IMG/VR virus record: IMGVR_UViG_3300005436_000501
Coordinates: 1 to 64,000 of that record
Reading direction: 5' to 3' (one strand)
Length of the DNA: 64,000 bases
Source of the DNA: a virus
Part shown: positions 3,001 to 9,576 of the stretch, piece after piece
Layout: the number at the start of each line of letters is the position of its first letter
Position numbering within the stretch: position 1 is the first letter of the stretch
Made by a program: the position numbers and the translations under genes
The notes under the pieces: model-generated
Seen by the model: the letters and a program-made list of their open reading frames with translations, nothing else
Told to the model about the DNA's origin: nothing
Databases searched by the model: none

Positions 3001-4521
3001 GTCGTCGGCCACCGGGACGCGGACGGCGTGCTGCACATCGACAGCGCGGCCACCGCCCGGCGCCCGAGCCACGGCGAGATCGTCGCGCACTTCTCGCGCC
3101 TGCGCCCCGCCGCCGGTTTCCTGGTGGACATCAGCGCCCCGCCGAACAGTTGCGCCCGCTGCGGCACGGACCAGCGCGGCCACGACGGCGACCACGCCTA
3201 CACCCAGCCCGATGACGCGCTGCGGCTCGCCCGGATGAAGGAACGGCGCCGCGCCCGGCTCAACCCGCCGCCCACGGTCGCGGCACTGCCCGACGTGCTC
3301 GTGACGTTCGCTGTGGACACCACACGCCTCGCCGAGTCCATGCGGCGCCTAGGGGAGGCGATCAGCGGCGCGCTGCAACCCGCCGTCGCAGCCGAACGTG
3401 CCCGGCAGGCGGCCATCACGACCGGAGCCGCCGCGCCGGCCGAGTCCCCGGGCTACGAGGCGATGCGCCGCGCGATCCTGGCGCTGCCGACGTCCGGGCC
3501 GATCCTCGCGTCCGACGCGGACTGGGACGCGCAAGGCAGTGTGTGCGCGCACGTCTGCGGCGGTTCACCGGACCATGTGTGCGACGCCCGCGCGACCACC
3601 ACGATCCGGTACCGGCTGCCGTCCGGCGGAACCCGGGCGCTCCCGCTGTGTGCACCCTGTGCGGAGGCCGAAACCGCGGCGGCGGGCGTGGCATCCTGAA
3701 GCGGTGACCGCCAACCCGATGATTGACCAGCTCGCCGCCGAGGTGCGCAGACGCTCGGCGCACCGACCCGAAGCCGCCACCCGCATCGCCGAGTTCATCG
3801 CCAGCCGGCTGCGCAGCGAACTCGGCGACCAGCTCACCGACCAGCAGATCGGCGCCGTCCTGCTGTGCAGCGCGTGCGCCGCGATGTCGCTCGCCAAGGA
3901 GTTCGGTTTGAGCGGACGCGCGATCGCCAACGGGATCGCGGTCGCGGGCGAGCAGGTCTACCACCACCCGGTCGACCGTGGCTAACTCGATGGATGCCTG
4001 GCGCAGGTCCCGGCGCGACCTGTTGGAGATCGAGAACCCGGGCGCCCAGTGCGGGCACTGCGGCTTCGGAAACCGGCTCAAGGGTGCCTGGTCGGTGGAG
4101 GGCGGGCGGCTGGTGTTCCGTGCCGATGCGAACCCGCTGCGCTCCCGAGGCCCGGACTTCGAGTCGTGCGGCGAGTCGGACGAGATCGCCGAATTCCGGA
4201 AGATCACCGTCAATGGGGAGCCGCTCACACCCGAGCAGGTCGCTGAACTCCAGGCGGCTGCCCGCGCGGCCGACGGGACGGAGTTCGACGATGCCTGATC
4301 TCGATGTCGCGCTTCTGCGCTCGGTTCCCGTCCCCGCTGCGATTACCGAAGTGGCCGGCTGTTCGTGCGGCGGCCTCGACTGGCACAAGCAGGACTGCAC
4401 CATCTGGTCGACGCCGGCCGACGACGCCATCGCGGCGGTAGAAGCCGCGCGCAGACGCGTGCGCGAGTACGGCGACGAACTCAACCGGCAGCTTCGCGCA
4501 GCCCTCGGAGGTCTGGCATGA
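28..4521 (+). other. Run of about 11 translationally coupled small hypothetical phage genes (28-537, 530-832, 829-1050, 1047-1613, 1606-1884, 2046-2498, 2495-2722, 2719-3699, 3704-3985, 3978-4298, 4291-4521)
   Basis: Start/stop overlaps, protein-like composition, several CxxC pairs; no family recognised. Confidence 0.6.
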
Positions 4522-5157: not shown

Positions 5158-5618
5158 CCTCTGAACCGCGGCCCACGCCCGGCCGCTGGGTTGATGAGCC
5201 GGTGCTGCCCGAACTGCCCACGGGCCCGCCGCCGCATCTGATCCGGGTGGAGGGCGCCCGGCTGATCCGGGTCATGAATGTGGACGCCCACAACCCCGCG
5301 TCCCGTGACGGCTACACCGAGGCTGTCGTCCTCGCGACCGCGCCCCTGGGCGGCGGCACAGGCGTGCTGGTAGCGTGGCTCGGAGGCTGGCAGGAGGGCC
5401 ACCGGGCGACCGGGAGAGGCCGCTACGCCTGGTGCCGGCTGCTCGAGGACCGGGTGCGCGAAGTGGCGCCGCCACGCGCCAAAATCGACGGCGCCGAATG
5501 GCACGGCCACCACGCCGAGGGCGAGTTCGCGGGGGCGGTGCGGCAGGCCGCGGAGCTGCTGCCCGAGGAGATGCGGGCGGCCGCGCTCACACCCAGGCCG
5601 GTCGACGGGTCGGCGTAA
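5154..5618 (+). CDS. Hypothetical protein
   Basis: GTGA overlap with upstream gene; globular-looking sequence. Confidence 0.55.
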   Translation: MTSEPRPTPGRWVDEPVLPELPTGPPPHLIRVEGARLIRVMNVDAHNPASRDGYTEAVVLATAPLGGGTGVLVAWLGGWQEGHRATGRGRYAWCRLLEDRVREVAPPRAKIDGAEWHGHHAEGEFAGAVRQAAELLPEEMRAAALTPRPVDGSA

Positions 5619-5639: not shown

Positions 5640-6647
5640 TCAGCGCCGCCACACGTTCACCCGCTCCGTCTCCAACAGCGGCGCCCCGTCCGGACCCTTC
5701 ACATACGACGGGATCCACGTCTGGCGCCGCAGCGACCGCGCCGGGCCGAACGCTTGATTTCGCCAATGCCCGGACACGACCCACCTATACCGGTAACGGC
5801 GCGCCGAACCCTCGCCGCCCTCCTCGTCGGGAACCTGCGGCCGGTACAGGCGCCGCAGGTCGATCAGGGTCACCGCCGGCTCCGGGCGCCCATCCCGCCG
5901 AGCGCGCCGGGCATCGTCCTTCGGCGCGTCCACGCGCGAGCGCTCGGCCAGCTTCGGCTGCTGCATCAGCGCCCACGCCGCCGCCATCGCCAGGCACACC
6001 GTCAGTAGCGCGGGTTCGTCGATCATCTCGGCGATCTCGGTCGCTGTGTGTGCGACGGGGTCGGCGGGCAGGTCCCAGCCCTGCATCGGCATCAGCGGGG
6101 GCATCGCGACCCCGCCGGGCAGCGGGACACGGCCCGGCAGCGCCGCCTCGATGCGGTCCCACCGCACCCAGCCGACCAGCAGCATCCCGCCCTCGCGGGG
6201 GCCCCAGGACACGGCGTCGAACGGCACACGCACACTGAGGCGCTCGGGCACCGTCCCGAGGGCCGTGTCGACGGTGCGCCCCCGGGTGTCGAACATCGAT
6301 CCCACGTCGAGGGACTGGCCGATGCCTCCGTCCCACACCAGTAGTCCGCTGGCGCTGGGCCGGTAGGCGTGCGCGAAGCACACCTCGGGCAGTGACGCCC
6401 CCGCGGCCATGGCCAGGGCGGACATGTCGGGTGTCGCCCAGTACAGCTCCGCGGTGGAGATCGAGGAGGCGGCGGTCGTGAAACGGGTCGCGTAGTCGGG
6501 GCGCAGCCGCTCGAGCGAGCCGTCGGTGAGCCTGCGCCAACTCTGCGTCCGGGTCCGCGGCAGCGCGGCGGGCGACCATCGGCGCGTCGGCGCGTGCGCG
6601 CCCGGCCCCTGCTGGCCCCGCGCTGCCGCAGCCCCGGGCCCGGTCAC
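5640..6647 (-). CDS. Conserved phage hypothetical protein with C-terminal RWxVxGHWRxQ...WIxxYVKGP motif
   Basis: RYRYRWVVSGHWRNQAFGPARSLRRQTWIPSYVKGP; start set at the GTGA overlap with 6644-6919. Confidence 0.7.
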   Translation of the reverse strand: MTGPGAAAARGQQGPGAHAPTRRWSPAALPRTRTQSWRRLTDGSLERLRPDYATRFTTAASSISTAELYWATPDMSALAMAAGASLPEVCFAHAYRPSASGLLVWDGGIGQSLDVGSMFDTRGRTVDTALGTVPERLSVRVPFDAVSWGPREGGMLLVGWVRWDRIEAALPGRVPLPGGVAMPPLMPMQGWDLPADPVAHTATEIAEMIDEPALLTVCLAMAAAWALMQQPKLAERSRVDAPKDDARRARRDGRPEPAVTLIDLRRLYRPQVPDEEGGEGSARRYRYRWVVSGHWRNQAFGPARSLRRQTWIPSYVKGPDGAPLLETERVNVWRR

Positions 6648-6919
6648 CGCCGTCTCGTCTCGCGCTCGATCTCCTGGTGCTTGCGCGTGAGGAACGCGTC
6701 GAAACGGGCCGCGCACTTCGGGGCGATTCGGTCCGCGGCTTTCAGCGCGGCCGCGGCGGGCAGCGCGGCCGGCCACAGGACCGCGGTGACCAGGTATGTC
6801 GCCGCGAAGAACAACCGGCCCTGCCCGCCGCGCCGGTCGGCGACCCACATCGCGCGCCCGATCAGCAAGGGCGCGAGGGGCGCGAGCACCGCGAAGTAGA
6901 CCACGACGAGGCTATGCAC
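6644..6919 (-). CDS. Small membrane protein (2 predicted TM segments)
   Basis: Two hydrophobic stretches and a basic tail. Confidence 0.55.
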   Translation of the reverse strand: MHSLVVVYFAVLAPLAPLLIGRAMWVADRRGGQGRLFFAATYLVTAVLWPAALPAAAALKAADRIAPKCAARFDAFLTRKHQEIERETRRR

Positions 6920-6967: not shown

Positions 6968-7669
6968 TCATCCGCGGGGGTCCTCCGGGTATCCGGCGGC
7001 GCGCAGCCCGTCGCCGTGCTCGCCGCCGGCCCGTGTCGCGGACCGATAGCGCACCGCCGCGTCCAGGACCCCGGCGGCCTGCCTCGGCGTCCAGGCGCGT
7101 GCCGCGTCCAGCAGGTCCGGGTACACGGTAGTGCCGGTGACGTCGTCAGTGAGGTCGGCGATCTCGCCGAGCAGGAACCCGCGCGGGTCCTCGAGCGCGA
7201 CCTCGTCGACGAGGATGCCCTGAAGGACGTCGAGCAACTGACAGAACAGGGCGATCGGGAATGCGGGGATCACGGCCGGGGCCGTCGGCTCGGCGTAGAC
7301 GACGCAGGCGTCGGGCAGCAGGTCGCGCACGCGCGCCACGGCGGCGCGGTGCCAGGACGCGGGCAGTGCGCCCTGGGGGTCGTGTTCGCGGTAGTCCGCG
7401 TCGGTGCGGTAGGTCTCGATCAGCGGGGCCGGGCGGTCCGCGAGGCTGTCGGCGAGTTGGCGCACGAAGTCCGCGGTGTGCGTCTCGAGTTTGGCGATCT
7501 CGGTGGCGACGCCGCCGGGCACGGGGTATTTGCCCTCTTCCCAGTGGCGTACGGTGCGTCCGGACACGCGTAGGTGTGCGGCGAGGGCGTCGCCGGTCAG
7601 GCCGAGGTGTTCGCGGATGACGCGCAGTTCGGCGGCGTTCATCCGGTCGGGTTCGCGGGCGGTGGGCAT
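6968..7669 (-). CDS. Aca2/YdiL (DUF1870)-like HTH regulator with extra C-terminal domain
   Basis: MNAAELRVIREHLGLTGDALAAHLRVSGRTVRHWEEGKYPVPGGV HTH, then YRTDADY...ASWHRAAVARV. Confidence 0.7.
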   Translation of the reverse strand: MPTAREPDRMNAAELRVIREHLGLTGDALAAHLRVSGRTVRHWEEGKYPVPGGVATEIAKLETHTADFVRQLADSLADRPAPLIETYRTDADYREHDPQGALPASWHRAAVARVRDLLPDACVVYAEPTAPAVIPAFPIALFCQLLDVLQGILVDEVALEDPRGFLLGEIADLTDDVTGTTVYPDLLDAARAWTPRQAAGVLDAAVRYRSATRAGGEHGDGLRAAGYPEDPRG

Positions 7670-7741
7670 GGGTGTGCTCCCTGGGCGTAGACGGGCGCGC
7701 CGCCGCGGAACGTGGTCCGGGCGGCGCGGCGCCGGGGTGCG

Positions 7742-8044
7742 TCAGATGCGCTCGACGGTGGCGACGTAGCCGGTGTCGACGCCGTCCCAGGGCTCGGCGA
7801 CGGACCAGCCGGCGTCGCGCAGCATCTTCTCTGCCTGGTGGATCAGTGCGTCGCGGTCGCCGTCGCGTGCGTCGATGTCGGTCTCGGCGTAGAACAGCGG
7901 GTCGCCGGTGGAGCCCCAGACGGGGGTTTCGTCGTTCTCGCCCTTGTAGCCGGTGATCTCGTCGGCGAGGACGGTGACGTCGATGTTGCCGTGGGGCAGT
8001 GCGCTGGCGTCGGTGGTGATCCACGCGGTGAAGTGCTCGCTCAT
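7742..8044 (-). CDS. Small acidic protein, candidate anti-CRISPR/anti-defence protein
   Basis: 100 aa, D/E-rich, GAAGGA RBS, first gene after a strong promoter and directly upstream of the Aca2-like HTH. Confidence 0.6.
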   Translation of the reverse strand: MSEHFTAWITTDASALPHGNIDVTVLADEITGYKGENDETPVWGSTGDPLFYAETDIDARDGDRDALIHQAEKMLRDAGWSVAEPWDGVDTGYVATVERI

Positions 8045-8095
8045 GGCCGGTTCCTTCCGGGTGGGTCTGGGGCTTTCCCCTGACCTCTTGACACC

Positions 8096-8124
8096 ATCAT
8101 AGCTTCCTAAAGTAGGAAGCGCAA
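8096..8124 (-). promoter_or_regulatory. Sigma70-type promoter with palindromic operator in the spacer
   Basis: Minus strand TTGCGC-17 bp-TATGAT; inverted repeat GCTTCCTA-aag-TAGGAAGC at 8102-8120. Confidence 0.8.
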
Positions 8125-8198
8125 GGGTTCTGATAAACGATCACGCAGAGCTGCCACGACGTGGACAATGGCCGTGCAGCCACCGAACGGAGCACCAC

Positions 8199-9576
8199 GT
8201 GACCACACCCCAGATCGCGGAACTCGCCGCGGAGATCCGCCGCCGCAGCCGCGGCCAGTCCCCTGCGACGAAGAAGCAGACCCGCCAGTCCGCCGCCGAC
8301 TTCCATCGCGACCTTCCTGGTATCGGCGACGAGGTGATCGGCGAGGTGCTGCTGCGCGCCGCGGTGTTCGCGTCCGCCGTGTTCCAGGCCAGCCCGGGGG
8401 CGAGCGTCCGGGACCTGTCCAGCCTGCTCGGCGCGATCGGGCAGCACATGTTCCACCACCCGCAGGGCGCCGACACGGACTGCCCCGACGAGGCGGCCGA
8501 CGGTGGCCAAGCCTGAGGACTGCGTCCACCCGTACCCCCGGCCCATGAGGGACGGGCAACGCTACTGCCCGTCCTGCCGCGCGAGACTGCCCGCACTCAC
8601 CCCGGATGAGACCGCCGAAGCGCACGACCAGCGCCAGGCGACCCGGCCGATGTCGCGATTTACCGGCTCCGGGCGCTGCGGGCACTGCGACACCACCGTG
8701 GGCCTCGACGAACGCCACCGCATCGGATTCCACTTCCAAGACGGCATCGCGGCCCCTTGCGCGGGCGTCGGCACCGACCCGCAAGCACCCAGCCCCTACG
8801 ACCGCGGCAGGCCGCTACGCGAACGCACGGTCACGTTCTGGCCCGGCGACCTGTCGGCGCTCATCGACGCCGTGGCGCACGGCCGCGAGTCGGTGTTCTG
8901 CGAGACGGCGCGCTGGCCGTGCGCAACCAGGCTGCACCCGATCTACCAGGTGCGCGCGGGCGGGCATCCGCGCGAGTTCCAGTTGGCGACCGACGGGCCG
9001 GACCGGTTGTTCGCTGACCCGGTGCTGTGGTCCGCCGGGCAGTCGATGGACACGGCGGCCCTGCTGTGGTGCCCGTGGACGCATTTCCCGGGGCGCGACT
9101 GCCGCTGCGAGACGCTGGCGCGGGAAGCGGCGCAGTGCAGTGCCCTGTCCACCGGGCTTCGACGCAGCGGCGCCTGCGAGGCGGAACTGTCCGCGCTGCG
9201 CGGTGAGGGATGATGAAGCGTGACTGACGCCGATACCTGCCGCCCGGTGACGCTCCCGTCAGGCGAGACGATCCCGGTGCGCGGCCGCGGGGGTCTCGGT
9301 CCGGCCGGTGTCGCGGCGCTCGCCGAGGTCATTGAAGCGGCCCGCGCCAAGCACGCGGCCGAGCATCCGTCCGACCCCGGCGCCGAGGACCTGTACGGGC
9401 GCGTGGACGCCGTGTGCGGGCGACTACGGCTGCCCCGGTACCGGGCGGCCAAGGCGATCGGCGTGAGGCACAGCGTGCTTGTGCGGCTCGCGCAGGGGCG
9501 CATGCCGGGCGGTGCCGAACGGGCCGCGATCGAGACGTGGCTCGCCGCTCAGAACCCGCCGGCGCCCGGCACCTGA
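8199..9576 (+). other. Three hypothetical genes (8199-8516; 8503-9213 Cys-rich; 9220-9576 with a possible C-terminal HTH)
   Basis: GGAG RBS before 8199; coupled ORFs; RYRAAKAIGVRHSVLVRLAQG HTH-like segment. Confidence 0.55.

What the first reader, a model, noticed from the sequence alone, without database searches (positions are those of the whole stretch)
6968..8124. acr-aca-like operon: candidate new anti-CRISPR or anti-defence protein
A near-consensus promoter (TTGCGC-17-TATGAT) has an 8-bp inverted repeat filling its spacer. It is followed by a 100-aa acidic ORF and an Aca2/YdiL-like HTH. The short 5' UTR has two stem-loops: GGTC-A-GGGG-AAAG-CCCC-A-GACC, and CCGG-AAGGAA-CCGG holding the SD. 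Known: Aca2 represses acr promoters through inverted repeats and also binds leader stem-loops. Inference: 7742-8044 is an early inhibitor of host defence, and the downstream genes 6644-6919 and 5640-6647 may be co-regulated. The HTH carries an extra C-terminal domain of about 100 aa.
Basis: partly seen in the sequence, partly recalled or inferred. Interest (0 to 1): 0.75.

Follow-up and report, generated by a model that had tools for sequence, protein, structure and literature searches.

The report
Aca2-controlled operon with acidic cargo
A Streptomyces-type prophage carries a small self-repressing operon of an already published kind, and it drives an unknown acidic protein and an AcrVA2-like protein that are reasonable but untested candidates for blocking bacterial defences.

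Summary
On the minus strand, a promoter with an 8-bp palindrome in its spacer precedes a leader with two hairpins. Four genes follow: a 100-aa acidic protein (pI 4.1), an Aca2-family HTH protein with an extra C-terminal domain of about 100 aa, a 91-aa membrane protein, and a 335-aa protein.

- **Switch.** The promoter-operator-leader cassette recurs in 48 distinct actinomycete element loci, with compensatory changes in the palindrome and both hairpins.
- **Cargo.** Genes between leader and HTH vary: 57 genes in 11 clusters, 48 of them acidic. None has a known function.
- **Acidic domain.** About 160 cluster representatives exist, with no solved fold match. It is also found fused to Aca2-type HTH and Phd/YefM-type modules.
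- **Last gene.** It looks AcrVA2/FinQ-like, with a conserved HxR motif.

The switch is published (Aca2 "actino-motif", as cited by Feussner 2026). This scan has already reported sister loci on other DNA. An anti-defence role for the cargo is plausible but untested.

Verdict: a new member of a known kind, of moderate interest.

The parts
8119..8124 (-). -35 element TTGCGC; the family consensus is CTTGCGC
   Evidence: Read. The column is conserved in the alignment of 48 loci. It matches TTGACA at only 3 of 6 positions and was not called by the scan.
8102..8120 (.). Palindromic operator GCTTCCTA-N3-TAGGAAGC in the promoter spacer; inferred binding site of the Aca2-like dimer
   Evidence: a perfect 8+8 repeat, unique in the 127-kb record. 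Symmetric variants occur in other loci, with 3 of 8 pairs changed on both sides. Binding is inferred, not tested.
8096..8101 (-). -10 element TATGAT; TAnnnT across the family
8064..8085 (-). Leader stem-loop 1: GGTC-A-GGGG-AAAG-CCCC-A-GACC
   Evidence: Minimum-free-energy fold. Across 48 loci, 97.1% of cells are paired and 3 of 8 pairs show compensatory changes.
8047..8060 (-). Leader stem-loop 2: CCGG-AAGGAA-CCGG, with the Shine-Dalgarno sequence in its loop
   Evidence: All cells are paired (100%), and 2 of 4 pairs show compensatory changes.
7742..8044 (-). Cargo gene: 100-aa acidic protein, here called the ACID domain (HFTAW...GW...TGY.ATVER)
   Evidence: pI 4.09. 12 close homologues and 161 representatives by profile search. 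AlphaFold2 model with pLDDT 86. No solved fold match. No Pfam, PHROG, NCBIfam or PADLOC family.
7694..7733 (-). GC-rich hairpin between the cargo stop and the HTH start
   Evidence: Arms of 13 nt, 85% complementary. Intergenic fold -38.4 kcal/mol, z -2.33. A hairpin sits at this position in most sister loci.
7298..7669 (-). Aca2/YdiL-type core of the 233-aa regulator (residues 1-124): HTH plus dimerisation domain
6968..7297 (-). C-terminal extension of the regulator (residues 125-233, helical) plus the stop codon
6644..6919 (-). 91-aa basic protein with hydrophobic segments, probably membrane-bound. Its stop overlaps the next gene's start (GTGA).
   Evidence: pI 11.1. No family found. The membrane character is judged by eye.
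5640..6647 (-). 335-aa protein (p335), phrog_15934, AcrVA2/FinQ-like
   Evidence: phrog_15934 at 5.8e-43. ESM Atlas: first hit 0.98, and 29 of 30 hits fall in the PF26125 AcrVA2-like set. G293-H294-W295-R296 are invariant in 4 homologues, matching the HxR motif described for AcrVA2. The local Pfam copy gives no match.
5491..5504 (-). Terminator-like hairpin with a T-run, about 135 nt after the last gene
   Evidence: 1 found against 0.8 expected, so weak on its own.

Best explanation
This is an Aca2-governed, self-repressing operon of a Streptomyces-type temperate phage or phage-plasmid.

Proposed working:
1. When the element enters a cell or is induced, a promoter transcribes four genes: the acidic ACID protein, the Aca2-like regulator, a small membrane protein, and an AcrVA2/FinQ-like protein.
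2. As the Aca2-like dimer builds up, it binds the palindrome between the -35 and -10 and shuts off transcription.
3. By analogy with phage ZF40 Aca2, it probably also binds the two leader hairpins. The second hairpin holds the ribosome site, so translation of the first gene would be damped.
4. A GC-rich hairpin after the cargo gene probably keeps regulator levels below cargo levels.
5. The cargo proteins are most likely binders that neutralise a host defence or a rival element. The ACID domain would be a non-enzymatic protein-binding module, and p335 would act like AcrVA2.

Shown here: the family of the regulator; conservation and covariation of the operator and hairpins; variability and acidity of the cargo.

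Inferred: DNA binding, RNA binding, the role of the intergenic hairpin, and any anti-defence activity.
For: Regulator:
- Pfam Aca2_YdiL scores 27.1 bits against a cut-off of 23.8.
- The four best-scoring PDB sequences by sequence search are all Aca2, E 3e-5 to 2e-3, rising to 2e-7 with a 5-sequence profile.

Switch:
- nhmmer with the window's 99-nt promoter-leader found 58 hits. 56 of them fall among the 86 HTH-bearing loci, and 2 are plasmid loci. That gives 47 distinct sequences plus the window.
- On the 48-row alignment, 94.2% of 960 cells pair. 8 of 20 pairs (17 cells) changed on both sides, and 0 of 500 shuffles reached this. Sliding the partners drops pairing to 27-60%.
- The operator is unique in the 127-kb record.

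Cargo:
- The 48 operons hold 57 cargo genes in 11 sequence clusters. 48 of the 57 have pI 4.1-4.6.
- Ten representatives of the non-ACID cargo clusters have no informative Pfam or PHROG match.

ACID domain:
- It is carried on Streptomyces plasmid records of about 88 kb to 1.6 Mb and on IMG/VR virus contigs.
- 87 of 150 listed representatives stand alone, with median pI 4.16. 59 are multidomain.
- Some are fused to the Aca2-type core (P0039, P0044, P0076, P0080) or to a Phd/YefM N-domain (4 of 57 at E<=1e-3; P0036 scores 41 bits against a cut-off of 29.8).

Operon mate p335: AcrVA2-like by ESM features (0.98; 29 of 30 hits) and by its invariant HxR motif.

Literature (passages read):
- Aca2 represses through a promoter inverted repeat and two 5' UTR hairpins, and an 'actino-motif' exists upstream of acr-aca2 operons (PMC13551039).
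- Bifunctional Acr-Aca fusions are known (PMC13530269).
Against: - No cargo protein of this operon family matches a characterised anti-defence protein by HMM or by solved fold.
- The AcrVA2 link for p335 rests on language-model features and one motif. The local Pfam copy and a PDB profile search give nothing.
- In print, only 35 of 1223 Aca2-like proteins sit beside known acr genes (PMC9410906). Aca2 membership alone therefore does not imply an Acr.
- AcrVA2 homologues mostly occur where Cas12a is absent, and one of them, FinQ, inhibits plasmid transfer.
- 9 of 57 cargo genes are basic, HTH_17-like proteins, so not every cargo gene looks like an inhibitor.
- Fusion of the ACID domain to antitoxin-type DNA-binding modules fits a regulatory or toxin-antitoxin-like role equally well.
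- L003 has an SL1-like hairpin but no Aca2 gene (seen by eye). That hairpin may have a general mRNA role.
- The leader's folding energy alone is not significant (z -1.55).
- The host genome and its defence systems are not in hand.
Confidence: 0.55

Rival explanations
1. The ACID protein is not an effector but a partner of the regulator. It would be a co-repressor, an anti-repressor or an antitoxin-like sensing module that binds the DNA-binding protein, or a toxin-like protein, and tunes the element's own gene expression.
For: The ACID domain is repeatedly fused to DNA-binding modules: the Aca2-type core in 4 representatives, Phd/YefM in 4, and HTH_3/HTH_31 in others. In the Phd/YefM fusions only model positions 1-44 of 74 are matched, so ACID sits where the rest of the antitoxin would be. 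In plasmid locus L002 the annotated protein fuses ACID to the Aca2-like core. Aca2 resembles the HigA2 and MqsA antitoxins.
Against: The same regulator, with the same operator and leader, sits behind at least ten unrelated cargo families. That is hard to square with a specific partner. 87 of 150 ACID representatives stand alone. ACID also occurs without any Aca2 gene in L003, L006 and L007. No toxin family is detected in the operon. Known Acr-Aca fusions show that fusion does not imply the two parts bind each other.
Confidence: 0.18
2. The operon serves competition between mobile elements or the element's own maintenance, such as fertility inhibition, exclusion of other phages or plasmids, or host takeover. 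It would not be aimed at host immunity.
For: AcrVA2 homologues are typically found without Cas12a, and FinQ lowers transfer-gene mRNA of the F plasmid (bioRxiv 10.1101/2022.11.29.518452, passages). The carriers are large plasmid or phage-like elements of 80-130 kb with replication, Ku and ligase genes nearby. A small membrane protein and basic HTH_17-like proteins are among the operon genes.
Against: A variable set of small acidic proteins behind an Aca-type regulator is the pattern that has repeatedly led to anti-defence genes. The published analysis of Aca-regulated operons reads them this way (PMC13551039 section 23). Nothing here separates the two readings directly.
Confidence: 0.22
3. The small ORF is not a real gene and the conserved cassette only drives the regulator.
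For: None beyond its small size and the lack of any family annotation.
Against: GC3 is 0.95 in a 72% GC genome. There are 12 close and 161 profile-level homologues with conserved residues. The fold is confident, with pLDDT 86 and pTM 0.76. The start codon lies at a fixed distance from a conserved SD in 48 loci.
Confidence: 0.02

Closest known systems
acrIF8-aca2 operon of Pectobacterium phage ZF40 (Aca2; PDB 7B5J, 7VJO-7VJQ, 8W35)
   Different: Sequence identity is only about 26-27%. The host phylum, the operator sequence and the hairpin sequences all differ. The cargo is unrelated to AcrIF8. This regulator has an extra C-terminal domain of about 100 aa. Two further genes follow the regulator.
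Aca2 'actino-motif' operons (Birkholz et al., Nature 2024, as cited in Feussner et al., NAR 2026, PMC13551039)
   Same: A conserved DNA motif plus a structured 5' UTR RNA motif upstream of aca2 operons, predominantly in Actinobacteria. The published operons also hold many unannotated candidate anti-defence genes and a DEAD-box helicase downstream of aca2 in some cases. L015 here has a 769-aa helicase-like gene at that position, judged by eye from its sequence.
   Different: I could not compare the motif itself. The Nature paper is not held, supplements are closed, and the motif is not in Rfam 15. Identity of this leader with the published actino-motif is therefore likely but unverified.
Bifunctional Acr-Aca proteins (AcrIE10, AcrIIA1, AcrIF24)
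AcrVA2 / FinQ family (PF26125)
   Same: p335 has similar length, the nearest ESM Atlas clusters carry PF26125, and a conserved HxR sits in the C-terminal region (H294, R296 here; H286, R288 in AcrVA2).
   Different: No HMM or PDB sequence match with the tools here. Nothing about the host, including whether it has Cas12a, is known.
Type II antitoxins HigA2, MqsA and Phd/YefM
   Same: The HTH resembles HigA2 and MqsA. The operon is autoregulated through a promoter palindrome. ACID is fused to Phd/YefM N-domains in some relatives.

Membership tests
Aca2/YdiL (Pfam PF08965, formerly DUF1870) | Matches the family HMM above the curated cut-off | tested here: met
   27.1 bits against a cut-off of 23.8, residues 10-100 on profile positions 1-94 of 118.
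Aca2/YdiL (Pfam PF08965, formerly DUF1870) | Two-domain fold: N-terminal HTH plus the Aca2-type dimerisation domain | tested here: met
   [not shown]
Aca2-type autoregulated operon | Inverted repeat overlapping the core promoter of its own operon | tested here: met
   A perfect 8+8 palindrome lies between the -35 and -10. It is conserved with symmetric variants in 48 loci.
Aca2-type autoregulated operon | The regulator binds that repeat and represses transcription | not testable with these tools
   Needs an EMSA or a reporter assay.
Aca2-type autoregulated operon | [quoted passage not shown] | tested here: met
   Minimum-free-energy fold. Helices are 97% and 100% paired, with 3 and 2 compensatory pairs respectively.
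Aca2-type autoregulated operon | The regulator binds the leader RNA and blocks translation | not testable with these tools
   Inferred from the ZF40 system as described in PMC13551039.
Published Aca2 'actino-motif' | Match to the published covariance model or consensus | not testable with these tools
   The Nature 2024 paper is not held. The motif is not in Rfam 15 (0 matches). Supplements are closed.
Anti-CRISPR or anti-defence protein (ACID, 7742-8044) | Inhibits a defined defence system | not testable with these tools
   Needs phage or plasmid interference assays.
Anti-CRISPR or anti-defence protein (ACID, 7742-8044) | Homology or shared fold with a characterised inhibitor | tested here: inconclusive
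   [not shown]
Anti-CRISPR or anti-defence protein (ACID, 7742-8044) | Guilt by association: a variable small gene directly upstream of a conserved Aca regulator on mobile elements | tested here: met
   57 cargo genes in 11 clusters across 48 operons. Carriers are IMG/VR viral contigs and Streptomyces plasmids.
AcrVA2/FinQ (PF26125) for p335 | Family HMM match | tested here: inconclusive
   The local Pfam copy returns nothing, even at E<=10, for 4 homologues. The model may be absent from that copy. The ESM Atlas neighbours carry PF26125 (first hit 0.98; 29 of 30 hits in this set).
AcrVA2/FinQ (PF26125) for p335 | Conserved C-terminal HxR motif needed for activity | tested here: met
   H294-W295-R296 are invariant in 4 homologues. 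The motif is described in the preprint.
Type II toxin-antitoxin pair | A toxin gene adjacent to the HTH antitoxin | tested here: inconclusive
   No toxin family appears in the four operon proteins. The upstream partner is acidic and variable. An unknown toxin cannot be excluded.

The most novel reading that the evidence does not exclude
The regulator may itself be a bifunctional Aca-Acr protein. Its rare C-terminal helical domain of about 100 aa (residues about 130-230) would be an AcrIE10-like module that binds a Cascade subunit. Engaging the host's CRISPR complex would then both inhibit it and release the operator, matching expression of the ACID and AcrVA2-like cargo to the strength of the defence. 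Type I-E systems being common in Streptomyces is my recollection and comes from no call.
Probability: 0.1. Interest if true: 0.75.

Novelty: new member of a known kind. Interest (0 to 1): 0.45.

Why it matters
As far as my searches show, no anti-defence protein carried in one of these actinomycete Aca2 operons has been characterised. The searches were made, and the 2026 paper does not mention Streptomyces or actinomycetes by those words.

This operon family gives a ready-made shortlist of candidates: at least ten families of small acidic proteins behind one conserved switch, with the ACID domain the commonest. Streptomyces phages and plasmids are genetic tools for antibiotic-producing strains. 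Inhibitors of their defences would therefore be useful for strain engineering as well as for understanding phage-host conflict.

The switch itself adds nothing new in kind. It does supply 48 natural variants of operator and hairpins, which could help define how Aca2 recognises DNA and RNA.

Tried and rejected
**Searches that found nothing**
- Related loci for the ACID domain: 0 confirmed among 260 pattern matches in viral contigs and 0 among 38 in genome contigs.
- tblastn of ACID against the phage collection: no match. The plasmid collection gave 5 records.
- Rfam on 7600-8300: 0 matches at E<=1.
- A leader pattern with a fixed loop length found nothing in the window, because the window's own loop is shorter.
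- C-terminal extension of the regulator: no Pfam family at E<=10. No meaningful PDB sequence match, either alone or as a 5-sequence profile. No related loci in metagenome contigs (0 of 599) or viral contigs (0 of 92). No stand-alone short homologue (0 of 14 candidates).
- PDB profile search with p335 homologues: only chance-level rows.

**Jobs with no verdict**
- Complex prediction of the regulator with ACID: no support (score 0.01; mark 0.32), controls not run. This counts neither for nor against binding.
- The look-up of sequencing runs: no RNA holder listed, only 2 DNA runs, one of them possibly the source.

**Ideas considered and dropped**
- That the SD-loop GGAAG mirrors the operator half-site TAGGAAG and is read by the same helix. 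Loci with a changed operator (L030, L032, L069, L077) keep the SD loop (seen by eye), so this has no support.
- That the operator and stem-loop 1 co-vary. L077 and L039 each change one without the other.

**Limits of the method**
- My gene walker missed the HTH in 2 of 48 operons (L036, L041) and over-extended some starts.
- Cargo cluster 0 merges the ACID domain with a separate 60-aa domain because of fusion proteins. In 3 of its 21 HMM-flagged members the HMM matches only 10-20 residues.
- The hairpin statistics use mononucleotide shuffles, and 7 of 45 intergenic regions were skipped for length.
- 30 of the 86 HTH loci gave no leader hit. Most have more divergent HTH proteins or are cut at a contig end. 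L005 has a diverged version seen by eye.

**Unavailable sources**
- The Nature 2024 paper is not held and supplements are closed. The supplementary cluster lists of PMC13551039 may already contain the ACID family.
Full report
**Setting**

The window is the first 64 kb of a 127,094-bp IMG/VR provirus record that CheckV rates 97% complete. Its GC content is 72%. The closest DNA relatives of the region are Streptomyces plasmid records of 88-120 kb and Streptomyces phage Gilgamesh.

**The observation**

The features below lie on the minus strand.

| Feature | Coordinates | Sequence or note |
|---|---|---|
| -35 | 8124-8119 | TTGCGC |
| Spacer | between -35 and -10 | 17 nt |
| -10 | 8101-8096 | TATGAT |
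| Palindrome | 8102-8109 / 8113-8120 | GCTTCCTA/TAGGAAGC, perfect, reaching from the last 2 nt of the -35 to the -10 |

- The -35 matches TTGACA at only 3 of 6 positions, and the consensus scan called no promoter. 'Near-consensus' is therefore too strong.
- The palindrome is unique in the window (0.06 expected) and in the whole record.
Its energy alone is unremarkable, with z -1.55.
- The first ORF (7742-8044) gives a 100-aa protein with pI 4.09.
- The second ORF (6968-7669) gives a 233-aa protein that hits HTH_31 and passes the Pfam cut-off for Aca2_YdiL.

**The regulator**

- Sequence search of the PDB puts Aca2 in all four top places, ahead of HigA2 antitoxins. A 5-sequence profile improves the E-value to 2e-7.
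- The AlphaFold2 model has pLDDT 91.9.
- Membership of the Aca2/YdiL family is thus met by HMM and by fold.
- Residues about 130-230 form an additional helical domain. It occurs in the query and its 4 closest relatives among the 28 proteins found; the others are mostly 134-164 aa, with five longer proteins of other make-up.

**The switch is conserved around variable cargo**

I fetched 86 loci encoding relatives of the regulator: 48 from genome contigs and 38 from viral contigs, with some duplicates.

- nhmmer with the window's promoter-leader found 58 homologous cassettes. 56 fall among those 86 loci, and 2 are plasmid loci. This makes 48 distinct sequences including the window.
- The alignment shows conserved CTTGCGC, the palindrome, a TAnnnT -10, both hairpins and a fixed ATG.
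- The palindrome has symmetric variants in some loci, for example the arm cores TGTCC/GGACA and CACCC/GGGTG.
- Stem-loop 1 shows GGCC/GGCC and GGGA/TCCC variants. The SD hairpin shows TCGG/CCGA and CCGA/TCGG variants.

| Measure | Value |
|---|---|
| Cells paired | 94.2% of 960 |
| Pairs changed on both sides | 8 of 20 (17 cells) |
| Shuffles reaching this | 0 of 500 |
| Pairing when partners are slid | 27-60% |

The rows are related sequences, so the shuffle count is not a probability. The slid control and the compensatory pairs are still convincing.

**Cargo census**

I walked the genes from the conserved ATG to the regulator.

- The 48 operons carry 57 cargo genes in 11 sequence clusters.
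- 21 genes hit the ACID profile, 3 of them only over 10-20 residues.
- 12 belong to a family of about 110 aa starting TSYGTW.
- 9 belong to a basic, HTH_17-like family of about 170 aa that always comes first and is followed by another cargo gene (by an acidic one in the eight operons resolved; in L026 the walker resolved no second gene, though the 300-nt gap translates, by eye, to a TSYGTW-type protein).
- The rest fall into small clusters and singletons.
- 48 of the 57 have pI 4.1-4.6.
- Ten representatives of the non-ACID cargo clusters gave no informative Pfam or PHROG match.

**The ACID domain**

- It has 12 close homologues and 161 representatives at E<=1e-3 in a profile search of 1.84 billion proteins.
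- The model (pLDDT 86, pTM 0.76) is a beta-sheet packed on one helix.
- Of the 150 listed representatives, 87 stand alone (median pI 4.16), 59 are multidomain, and 4 very long repeat proteins are probably spurious.
- Fusion partners include the Aca2-type core in 4 representatives. In a scan of 57 multidomain members (130-499 aa) at E<=1e-3, Phd/YefM N-domains matched in 4, HTH_3 in 3 and HTH_31 in 2.
- Plasmid locus L002 encodes such an ACID-Aca2 fusion.
- The conserved residues are hydrophobic-core positions, with no catalytic-looking motif. I therefore read the domain as a binding module.

**Other operon parts**

- **Intergenic hairpin.** A GC-rich hairpin lies between cargo and regulator (7694-7733). 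At the same place, 30 of 38 sister loci with a 30-120-nt gap have an uninterrupted stem of at least 8 bp, with median z -3.4 against mononucleotide shuffles. I infer a partial terminator or a stabiliser that keeps cargo above regulator.
- **Membrane protein.** After the regulator comes a 91-aa hydrophobic basic protein.
- **p335.** Overlapping the 91-aa protein's stop codon is a 335-aa protein of phrog_15934. The same family follows the regulator in 9 of 42 loci. The ESM Atlas places it among clusters carrying PF26125 AcrVA2-like (first hit 0.98; 29 of 30 hits in this set). H294-W295-R296 are invariant, and the AcrVA2 preprint describes a conserved C-terminal HxR needed for activity. HMM and PDB sequence searches do not confirm this, so membership is probable, not shown.

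**What is known**

- Feussner et al. 2026 (abstract, several passages and section 23 read) state that Aca2 represses its operon through a promoter inverted repeat and two 5' UTR hairpins. They also state that an 'actino-motif' RNA was described by Birkholz et al. 2024 upstream of acr-aca2 operons, and that most Aca-regulated genes are unannotated candidates.
- I could not read the 2024 paper or any supplement. The motif is not in Rfam. Identity with the published motif is therefore likely but unverified.
- This scan has already reported sister loci on other DNA, with the same verdict.

**Reading**

The regulatory half is as good as settled by homology and covariation; I put it at about 0.9. 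An anti-defence function for ACID and p335 is the best-supported reading but is untested; I put it at about 0.5. The rivals are a regulatory or toxin-antitoxin-like partner role, suggested by the fusions, and a role in competition between mobile elements, suggested by FinQ.

**A lead**

Noticed in passing
window 7694-7733; the same position in L008-L082: A strong GC-rich hairpin without a T-run lies between the last cargo gene and the Aca2-like gene. 30 of 38 loci with a 30-120-nt gap have an uninterrupted stem of at least 8 bp. The sequences differ but the position is conserved. It may be a leaky terminator or an mRNA stabiliser that sets the ratio of cargo to regulator.
   Followed up: partly
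[not shown]
   Followed up: partly
window 5640-6647: The last operon gene (phrog_15934) looks AcrVA2/FinQ-like by ESM Atlas neighbours and has an invariant GHWR motif near its C-terminus. The local Pfam copy does not recognise it.
   Followed up: partly
L015, L017, L018, L026, L038, L062, L063, L072, L074 (first gene after the leader): Nine operons start with a basic 167-176-aa protein whose N-terminus weakly matches HTH_17 (E 1e-3). It comes first and is followed by another cargo gene in at least eight of the nine operons (L026 unresolved). Its function is unknown.
   Followed up: no
L003 5500-5640 (Streptomyces sp. NBC_01353 plasmid): Here an ACID homologue is followed by an 80-aa protein instead of Aca2. 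The promoter spacer holds a different palindrome (GCCTCA/TGAGGC), while a stem-loop-1-like hairpin remains. This suggests regulator-operator pairs are swapped as modules.
   Followed up: no
L015 3488-5797: A 769-aa protein that by eye looks like a DEAD/DEAH-type helicase follows the Aca2-like gene. This echoes the helicases reported downstream of aca2 in PMC13551039.
   Followed up: no
P0017, P0019, P0025, P0031, P0051, P0110: ACID-domain proteins share a tail of about 70 aa ending in G-x-G-A-R-T-D. The 80-aa protein of L003 resembles this tail by eye. It may be another DNA-binding module.
   Followed up: no
window 8199-8516 (+) and about 3700-3985 (+): The divergently transcribed 105-aa gene next to the promoter appears, by eye, to have a paralogue a few kb away. 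Both contain an I..LAAE.RRRS stretch and end with HHP. No family was found for the first.
   Followed up: no
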